This document shows, in pieces, positions 11,893 to 12,165 of a DNA stretch of 64,000 nucleotides. Where the stretch lies: positions 4,032,001-4,096,000 of the forward strand of contig OZ242195.1 of assembly GCA_965205975.1 (NCBI GenBank), in the 5' to 3' direction. The DNA is from Candidatus Latescibacterota bacterium. GTDB lineage: Bacteria; Latescibacterota; UBA2968. The notes below the pieces were generated by a model. It saw only the letters and a program-made list of their open reading frames with translations. It made no database searches and had not been told where the DNA came from. Position numbers and translations under genes: made by a program. How positions within the stretch are numbered: position 1 is the stretch's first letter; every line of letters begins with the position of its first letter.

Positions 11893-12165
11893 TTGTCACT
11901 ATTATGCCACTGCGACGAGCGGCCCTGCTGGGCTGGCATTAGCCCAGGCTTTCGCAATTATTGTGATGGTAAGGTGCAATCAGTGGTGGCATCTCAACCC
12001 GGCCGTTACCATTGGGCACGTTTGTAGCGGGAAGTGCAGGCAGTGGTAATGCTATTAAATACATTGTCTTTTGTCTGTCAATGGTGATGGTGAAGAATAT
12101 GTAACGCGACACAAAATCAATTCTTTAACAAAGCGCAGAGAGCAAAGCTGTTCTCTGCGCTTTGT
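11893..12165 (+). ncRNA. Candidate structured non-coding RNA of unknown family
   Basis: Multiple nested stems with G-U pairs, no long ORF, bounded by a promoter-like sequence and a 16-bp hairpin terminator. Confidence 0.5.

What the first reader, a model, noticed from the sequence alone, without database searches (positions are those of the whole stretch)
11893..12165. Unannotated multi-branch RNA candidate with many G-U pairs
Seen stems: TTGTCACTATT(11893-11903)/AATGGTGATGG(12080-12090) closing the ends; ATGCCAC(11904-10)/GTGGCAT(11986-92); TGCGA(11911-15)/TCGCA(11952-56) enclosing CTGGGCT/AGCCCAG; TTACCATTG(12006-14)/CAGTGGTAA(12041-49) with inner GCAC/GTGC. Pairing that relies on G-U works only for the + strand transcript. 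The recurring CAGTGGT words allow alternative folds, which is switch-like. It does not match tRNA, SRP, tmRNA, RNase P or the cobalamin riboswitch element order as I know them.
Basis: partly seen in the sequence, partly recalled or inferred. Interest (0 to 1): 0.75.

Follow-up and report, generated by a model that had tools for sequence, protein, structure and literature searches.

The report
Transcribed remnant of an aquaporin gene
The supposed new folded RNA is the leftover of a water-channel (aquaporin) gene that lost its start and most of its middle but kept its promoter and stop signal, so it is probably still copied into a short RNA that may or may not have gained a job of its own.

Summary
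The stems are in the sequence, but the strong folding score (z -4.6) comes from one terminator hairpin (12128-12165); without it z is -1.5 to -1.9. The region is an eroded aquaporin (MIP) gene of a Latescibacterota bacterium: codons ~18-81 with the first NPA motif, a ~390-nt deletion, the last codons and the terminator (nhmmer E 3.7e-15 to intact genes in two congeners, one between the same flanking genes). Ribosome-binding site and start are gone; the promoter-like site remains. Of 20 congeneric loci examined, 8 carry this remnant, 5 a shorter one, 3 none, 2 the intact gene, 2 a catalase. It no longer codes (frameshifts in 3 of 8; 8 synonymous, 15 non-synonymous changes). No Rfam match; no compensatory pair outside the terminator. 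RNA contigs of a relative cover ~11907-12137 in 2 of 4 runs laid. The core diverges about 3-fold slower than synonymous sites, but neighbouring non-coding DNA is also slow and mosaic. Best reading: transcribed pseudogene without a selected role (0.6); rival: young sRNA born from the gene, like OxyS or StyR-3 (0.25). Not a riboswitch. Two look-ups found no earlier scan note on it.

The parts
11756..11814 (+). Scrap of a catalase gene (about codons 347-366): an older remnant just upstream
   Evidence: 59 nt at 85% identity to the intact catalase of G018, E 4.6e-12; PF00199 E 0.003, below cut-off
11851..11886 (+). Retained aquaporin promoter-like site: TTGATT (11859-64), 16 nt, TATATT (11881-86)
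   Evidence: consensus scan (4 such sites in 2.2 kb vs 3.1 expected, so not significant alone); 15 of 15 nt around the -35 identical to the DNA upstream of the intact G001 aquaporin
11891..11930 (+). 5' stub: aquaporin codons ~18-31 joined directly behind the -10 box (leader, RBS, start and ~17 codons deleted); the most variable part
   Evidence: alignment to G001/G017 genes; 25 of 40 columns vary in 8 genomes
11931..12067 (+). Eroded aquaporin codons to ~81, with the first NPA (AAC CCG GCC, 11996-12004) and a shared 8-nt frameshifting deletion near 11972
   Evidence: nhmmer E 3.7e-15, window 11891-12067 to parent nt 51-245; PF00230 15 bits here, 32.2 and 31.7 bits (over cut-off) in G004 and G015; alignment
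11928..11947 (+). Best-kept hairpin CTGGGCT/AGCCCAG
   Evidence: 96% of cells paired, no two-sided change
12003..12090 (+).
   Evidence: RNAalifold consensus; pair counts; no two-sided change
12068..12100 (+). Junction of the ~390-nt internal deletion and the last aquaporin codons (N-G-D-G-E-E, former stop now TAT at 12098-12100)
   Evidence: alignment of 3' ends with G001 and G017; 12052-12084 invariant in 8 of 8 genomes
12128..12172 (+). Intrinsic-terminator-like hairpin (17 bp) inherited from the parent locus
   Evidence: z -7.6; homologous hairpin behind intact aquaporin and catalase genes; not called by the simple scanner
12173..12200 (+). Dead copy of the ahpD ribosome-binding site and first codons
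   Evidence: alignment with 13500-13675 and the G001/G017 ahpD starts
12425..13560 (+). Three tandem small membrane-protein genes of no known family, inserted behind the remnant; own transcript
   Evidence: no Pfam hit for all three, no NCBIfam hit for the first; absent from the fetched G001, G017, G011, G018 loci; RNA contigs start at ~12310-12430
13549..13656 (+). Second copy of aquaporin tail, terminator and ahpD start, which closes the insertion
   Evidence: 77% identity over 106 nt to 12089-12194
13643..14179 (+). AhpD-family alkylhydroperoxidase gene (right flank)
   Evidence: TIGR00778 over cut-off, TIGR00777 166 of 192 bits
9751..11532 (-). McrB-like AAA+ gene (left flank, divergent)
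   Evidence: PF07728 over cut-off; McrB NF008457 E 5e-4, far below cut-off

Best explanation
A transcribed pseudogene. An aquaporin gene lay between the McrB-like gene and ahpD (shown: intact there in G001). In the ancestor of one clade a cassette of small membrane genes was inserted behind it, duplicating its tail, terminator and the ahpD start (shown by the two copies; order of events inferred). The aquaporin then lost its leader, RBS and first ~17 codons, took a frameshift and lost ~390 nt of its middle (shown). The old promoter still fires and the old terminator still stops it, which gives an untranslated RNA of about 280 nt (inferred; weak RNA support). The RNA folds because G/U-rich membrane-protein codons pair easily, not because a structure is selected. 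At most the terminator serves, by insulating the cassette. Loss was tolerated, perhaps because these genomes carry another intact MIP next to an arsenate-reductase-like gene (presence shown; the redundancy is inference).
For: Homology and synteny with intact genes. Differences from the parent are weighted to third codon positions (10/12/22 of 50/49/50 vs G017) while changes among the 8 remnants are 8 synonymous and 15 non-synonymous (27% synonymous expected), with private frameshifts in 3 of 8 and NPA-region changes. Core absent from 8 of 16 cassette-bearing genomes; G002 has lost the terminator too. No two-sided change in 43 non-terminator pairs; covariation score 0.107 vs 0.104 in shuffles (197 of 500); RNAalifold covariation term -0.15. 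Adjacent non-coding DNA is also slow: 0.088-0.099 for upstream haplotypes vs 0.172 at 4-fold sites; 3 differences in 61 nt over the catalase scrap and following bases between G000 and G003. Remnant states are scattered over flanking-gene trees and upstream haplotypes are mosaic, as expected if the block recombines. Whole remnant (0.092) sits at the median of other non-coding windows (0.055-0.203, 19 windows). No Hfq found in the genome. No complement above chance in the genome (best E 1.2). Pseudogene transcription is common in a symbiont (PMC7067036, abstract).
Against: Core 11931-12100 is slow: p 0.060 vs 0.173 at 20,399 four-fold sites; below all 110 genes (minimum 0.096), 0 of 287 blocks of 60 sites and about 4 of 617 blocks of 30; 24 of 168 columns vary vs 37% (binomial 4e-11). 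It is flanked by fast parts (stub 0.23-0.26; spacer near 12281 0.19), which a broad sweep would not leave, and the shorter remnant of the 5 other genomes runs at 0.12-0.14. Moving substitutions at random lowers structure conservation: core SCI 0.94 vs 0.85, 6 of 200 (post hoc; whole remnant 20 of 150). Ortholog z-scores -0.8 to -3.1 vs -0.8 and -0.4 for the parent genes. Bacterial pseudogenes are usually deleted fast (PMC2916853, abstract), yet this one persists in 8 species.
Confidence: 0.6

Rival explanations
1. A young small RNA exapted from the aquaporin gene. It uses the parent promoter (so it would stay in the parent's, possibly peroxide-stress, regulon beside ahpD) and the parent terminator, and is now kept for an RNA-level role, most simply base-pairing in trans through the invariant U-rich stretch 12052-12084 displayed on the 12-bp helix.
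For: Core about 3-fold slower than 4-fold sites with fast flanks; weak structure-preservation signal (6 of 200); RNA contigs at ~11907-12137 and ~11908-12100 in runs X4 and X3, inside the promoter-terminator unit and separate from the cassette contigs; sharp loss of RBS and start with promoter and terminator kept; precedent in OxyS and StyR-3 (10.1101/2021.10.18.464853, abstract and section 6).
Against: No compensatory pair; folds differ between copies; core missing in 8 of 16 genomes; neighbouring non-coding DNA also slow and mosaic; both RNA contigs come from one study, contigs give no strand or ends, and DNA carry-over is not excluded; no Hfq and no candidate target.
Confidence: 0.25
2. The conserved part works as DNA: a promoter or operator created at the deletion junction, for example TTGACA (12081-76), 16 nt, TTTAAT (12059-54) on the - strand, pointing at the McrB-like gene.
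For: These hexamers lie in the 33-nt stretch that is invariant in 8 of 8 genomes (hexamers read by eye).
Against: The -10 lacks the conserved A and the scanner does not call it; the slow region is ~200 nt, longer than a promoter; RNA contigs extend to the right of it; genomes without it keep the McrB-like gene.
Confidence: 0.08
3. A riboswitch or other structured RNA of a new family that gates the downstream membrane genes at the terminator.
For: Mutually exclusive helices exist; it lies upstream of an operon and ends in a terminator.
Against: Sequence is aquaporin coding DNA; MFE and centroid both keep the terminator; cassette RNA contigs begin ~150 nt or more beyond it; 8 of 16 cassette genomes lack the core; no Rfam match, no covariation.
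Confidence: 0.03
4. It encodes a small peptide (the 27-codon ORF, a 43-codon aquaporin-frame piece, or a 7-codon ORF at 12081).
For: A 43-codon frame without a stop survives in 5 of 8 genomes; second codon positions vary least (14/5/14, p 0.086).
Against: No start before the 43-codon frame; frameshifts in 3 of 8; synonymous share as expected by chance; the 27-codon ORF is broken in 3 of 8.
Confidence: 0.03

Closest known systems
MIP/aquaporin family (PF00230, TIGR00861; AqpZ-like, unassigned subfamily)
   Same: Parent gene in G001 and G017 scores 180-188 bits on PF00230; the remnant keeps parts of helices 1-3 and the first NPA motif.
   Different: No start, frameshifted, second NPA and about 60% of the gene deleted; cannot make a channel. 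Parents score below the aquaporin Z equivalog cut-off (113-124 of 256 bits).
Transcribed bacterial pseudogenes (e.g. Sodalis glossinidius, PMC7067036)
   Same: Broken gene with kept promoter and probable residual sense transcription, in a probably host-associated bacterium.
   Different: Here both ends are kept around two deletions, giving a compact unit, and the core diverges slowly across 8 species.
sRNAs born from decayed genes: OxyS (peroxidase 3' end), StyR-3 (metallohydrolase 5' end), STnc240 (10.1101/2021.10.18.464853)
   Same: Same locus as the parent gene, parent promoter kept, parent intact in outgroups; neighbourhood of peroxide-defence genes (catalase, AhpD).
   Different: No shown discrete transcript, regulator, chaperone or target; made of a 5' piece fused to the 3' tail; no sequence relation to those RNAs.
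Rho-independent terminator
   Same: GC-rich hairpin followed by TTTGTATTT, at the end of the parent gene in every state of the locus.
   Different: Long stem with an upstream A-run that can pair with the U-run; termination not measured.

Membership tests
MIP/aquaporin-derived pseudogene | Sequence homology to an intact MIP gene | tested here: met
   nhmmer E 3.7e-15 genome-wide; blastn 80% over 98 nt to G017; PF00230 over cut-off in 2 orthologs, 15 bits here
MIP/aquaporin-derived pseudogene | Same genomic position as an intact gene in relatives | tested here: met
   G001: McrB-like gene, aquaporin, terminator, ahpD; G017: aquaporin, terminator, ahpD (McrB-like gene not in the fetched 11 kb)
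MIP/aquaporin-derived pseudogene | Disabling lesions and no protein-level constraint | tested here: met
   RBS/start deleted, shared 8-nt deletion, ~390-nt deletion; 8 synonymous vs 15 non-synonymous alleles
Functional MIP channel gene | Two NPA motifs and six helices in one reading frame | tested here: not met
   one NPA, longest open frame 56 codons without the family's start; definition from PMC6912568 passages
sRNA derived from a decayed gene (OxyS/StyR-3 type) | Occupies the parent locus and keeps the parent promoter | tested here: met
   (sequence level only)
sRNA derived from a decayed gene (OxyS/StyR-3 type) | Discrete, stable transcript | tested here: inconclusive
   contigs in 2 of 4 RNA runs laid, one study, no strand or ends
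sRNA derived from a decayed gene (OxyS/StyR-3 type) | Purifying selection on sequence or structure | tested here: inconclusive
   core 0.060 vs 0.173, but neighbours 0.09-0.10 and mosaic; SCI 6 of 200 and 20 of 150; no covariation
sRNA derived from a decayed gene (OxyS/StyR-3 type) | Regulates a target | not testable with these tools
   blastn-short found no complement above chance; Hfq not found; ProQ not searched
Riboswitch / known structured RNA | Match to an Rfam family | tested here: not met
   0 at gathering score; best 22 bits vs cut-off 45, on the other strand
Riboswitch / known structured RNA | Covarying conserved structure | tested here: not met
   0 of 43 non-terminator pairs with a two-sided change in 8 sequences; power is low
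Riboswitch / known structured RNA | Alternative fold that removes the terminator, and dependence of the downstream genes on it | tested here: inconclusive
   MFE and centroid keep the terminator; constrained folding not run; downstream genes present without the core in 8 of 16 genomes
Rho-independent terminator | GC-rich hairpin with U-rich tail at a gene end | tested here: met
   z -7.6; 98.5% of cells paired, the only two-sided change; not called by the simple scanner
Rho-independent terminator | Transcript 3' ends at the tail | not testable with these tools
   only contigs were served; X4 contig stops at ~12137

The most novel reading that the evidence does not exclude
A ~280-nt small RNA caught in the act of being born from an aquaporin gene in a peroxide-defence locus of sponge-associated Latescibacterota: 5' piece and 3' tail fused by a deletion that creates a new 12-bp helix, parent promoter and terminator reused, sequence now constrained, in a genome where no Hfq was found; with every stage (catalase, intact aquaporin, full remnant, shorter remnant, loss) preserved among congeners.
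Probability: 0.25. Interest if true: 0.55.

Novelty: new member of a known kind. Interest (0 to 1): 0.27.

Why it matters
As a pseudogene it is ordinary, and a warning for RNA screens: eroded membrane-protein genes with a kept terminator look like G-U-rich multi-branch RNAs and give high z-scores. If the slow divergence is selection on the RNA, it would be an OxyS-like birth of a small RNA outside Enterobacterales, in an uncultured phylum, with the intermediate stages available, which would make the question of how a gene remnant becomes a regulator directly testable by comparison.

Tried and rejected
Rfam and ARAGORN: nothing. One search placed a structure on the wrong alignment columns (39.6% paired); it is void and was redone. 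Pattern scans for more copies or a closer intact parent: 5 loci in genome contigs, with the contig lengths and positions of genomes already in hand, 0 in two metagenome scans; a DNA search of 53 genomes of the order found the full remnant in the same 8 only. So covariation power stayed low. Intact aquaporins of G029 and G026 (other family) lie in another context and were not taken as the parent. Runs X1 and X2 gave no contig on the remnant and no run covered 11603-11804 or 12209-12309; holes prove nothing, and these strains may be of the shorter type; 4 of the 10 RNA runs listed were laid. Trees of single flanking genes have low support at many nodes, so the order of events among states is not fixed. 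No shared neutral pseudogene was found among 14 non-coding runs to serve as a clean control (no protein hits). G013 (430 contigs) was not examined: 20 of 21 genus genomes were. The Atlas search for the first membrane gene gave only unnamed clusters. Five literature searches listed no paper on this locus; I saw listings only, except four papers named in the report; supplements were not read and most subscription papers are not held.

Full report
1. Observation. The 273-nt span folds at -104.6 kcal/mol, z -4.56. The span includes a 17-bp hairpin at 12128-12165 that scores z -7.6 by itself; the rest scores z -1.92 (11893-12090; 14 of 300 shuffles as good) or -1.46 (11893-12125; 19 of 300), and the best sub-domain 11904-11992 z -2.6 (3 of 300). 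Shuffles of the + strand fold about 15 kcal/mol better than shuffles of the - strand, so the strand preference is a matter of composition. Rfam and ARAGORN find nothing.

2. What it is. The + frames contain pieces of the aquaporin signature: A-G-L-A-L-A-Q-A-F-A-I-I-V-M-V and H-L-N-P-A-V-T-I-G in one frame, G-A-I-S-G-G and G-N-A-I-K-Y-I-V in the next. PF00230 hits the spot weakly here (15 bits) and over the cut-off in the copies of G004 and G015. Two congeners keep an intact aquaporin in front of the same terminator and ahpD gene: G001, where the McrB-like gene is also adjacent, and G017. A nucleotide profile of those two genes finds window 11891-12067 at E 3.7e-15 in the whole genome. Alignment shows the anatomy: promoter-like site kept (15 of 15 nt around the -35 as in G001); leader, RBS, start and ~17 codons deleted; codons ~18-81 kept with a shared 8-nt deletion; ~390 nt deleted; last codons, 3' UTR and terminator kept. 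Record titles from a pattern scan name the group as Latescibacterota; the RNA runs are labelled sponge or marine metagenome.

3. Distribution. Of 21 genus genomes 20 were examined at this locus: 8 have the full remnant (G000, 003, 004, 007, 008, 010, 015, 016), 5 a shorter one without the core (G002, 005, 012, 014, 020; G002 also lost the terminator), 3 none (G006, 009, 019), 2 the intact aquaporin, 2 a catalase (G011, 018). All 16 of the first three groups carry a cassette of small membrane genes, closed by a second copy of tail, terminator and ahpD start. G000 also keeps a 59-nt catalase scrap upstream. A search of 53 genomes of the order found the full remnant in these 8 only.

4. Not a protein. 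Against G017 the remnant consensus differs at 10, 12 and 22 of 50, 49 and 50 first, second and third positions: a coding past plus later free change. Among the 8 copies the 43-codon 3' frame has 8 synonymous and 15 non-synonymous alleles (27% synonymous expected), no start, and private frameshifts in G000, G003 and G008.

5. Structure. RNAalifold prefers another fold, with a 12-bp helix across the deletion junction, and a covariation term of -0.15. Single copies give different MFE folds, z -0.8 to -3.1 without terminator, against -0.8 and -0.4 for the matching parent stretch. Relocating the observed substitutions at random gives a weak hint of structure keeping: whole remnant 12 of 150 (energy) and 20 of 150 (SCI); core only 9 and 6 of 200 (the core test is post hoc). 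Eight close sequences give little power either way.

6. Is it under selection? In a six-genome alignment of 166 kb the core 11931-12100 has p 0.060 against 0.173 at 20,399 four-fold sites, below all 110 genes scored and 0 of 287 blocks of 60 sites; 24 of 168 columns vary against 37%. The 5' stub (0.23-0.26) and a spacer near 12281 (0.19) are fast, and the shorter remnant type runs at 0.12-0.14. That favours constraint. Against it: the whole remnant (0.092) is typical of the 19 non-coding windows (0.055-0.203), three other runs have windows of 0.058-0.062 (they look promoter-rich by eye); upstream haplotypes run at 0.088-0.099; G000 and G003 differ at only 3 of 61 nt over the catalase scrap and following bases, and 28 of 279 over the whole spacer; remnant states are scattered over flanking-gene trees of modest support, and upstream haplotypes cross the states. 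Lowest divergence sits at the junction that defines the allele (0.02 at 12043-12100), which is what either a functional core or a recently spread deletion allele would give. I could not separate the two.

7. Transcription. Four of 10 listed RNA runs were laid. X4 has a 230-nt contig over ~11907-12137 and X3 a 192-nt contig over ~11908-12100, with G008-like alleles; both are from study P3; X1 and X2 have none. The contigs fall inside the promoter-terminator unit and are separate from those of the cassette, which start at ~12310-12430. Contigs show no strand, ends or level, and DNA carry-over is not excluded: a weak hint only.

8. Mechanism. Most likely (0.6) the old promoter makes an untranslated ~280-nt RNA that ends at the old terminator and has no selected role; the stems are a by-product of G/U-rich hydrophobic codons (inference). 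Such residual transcription is known from a symbiont (PMC7067036, abstract read). The main rival (0.25) is a young sRNA like OxyS or StyR-3, which arose from decayed genes and kept the parent promoter (10.1101/2021.10.18.464853, abstract and section 6 read); long persistence speaks for it, since bacterial pseudogenes are usually removed fast (PMC2916853, abstract read). Hfq was not found and no complement above chance exists in the genome. A DNA element (0.08), a riboswitch (0.03) or a peptide (0.03) are less likely. The neighbours catalase and AhpD suggest the parent passed H2O2, as a streptococcal aquaporin does (PMC6912568, passages read); this is inference.

9. Novelty and verdict. Five literature searches (listings) and two look-ups in earlier scan notes showed nothing on this element; one note concerned the neighbouring McrB-like gene. 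It is a new instance of a known kind: a transcribed gene remnant, possibly a nascent sRNA. It is not a new structured-RNA family. Interest 0.27; 0.55 if the sRNA reading is shown.

Noticed in passing
window 11756-11814: Catalase gene scrap. Intact catalase fills the slot before ahpD in G011 and G018, the only 2 of 21 genus genomes with a full PF00199 match. The ancestor may have had catalase, aquaporin and ahpD in a row, which would suit a peroxide-passing aquaporin (inference; peroxiporin precedent in PMC6912568 passages).
   Followed up: partly
window 12425-13560: Three tandem paralogous small hydrophobic genes (64-72% identical) with no Pfam match; covered by RNA contigs in all 4 runs laid; two copies in G006 and G019, a single copy elsewhere in G029. 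Function unknown; arguably the more interesting feature of the locus.
   Followed up: partly
window 12089-12194 and 13549-13656: The cassette is bounded by a ~106-nt direct repeat (aquaporin tail, terminator, ahpD start); the third membrane gene's C-terminal tail ends in the duplicated aquaporin tail.
   Followed up: yes
L062, L063, L061 (G006, G019, G009): The old aquaporin promoter is joined directly to the leader of the membrane-gene cassette: promoter capture.
   Followed up: partly
L001:1501-2661 (G000:C1:3048311-3049471): A second, intact MIP gene (TIGR00861 over cut-off) directly followed by an ArsC-like gene (TIGR02691 159 of 174 bits): probably an arsenic-handling pair. G001 and G017 show only the ahpD-linked MIP.
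   Followed up: partly
window 9751-11532 (-): McrB-like AAA+ gene with no McrC beside it; an earlier scan note (e1-919194) describes a split McrBC system in relatives. Not checked here beyond family scans.
   Followed up: no
window 11533-11845: Highly plastic spacer: about 105 to 1,390 nt among 16 genomes compared, in several mosaic haplotypes.
   Followed up: partly
window 17214-18074 (-): Leucine-rich-repeat-like protein by eye; not tested.
   Followed up: no
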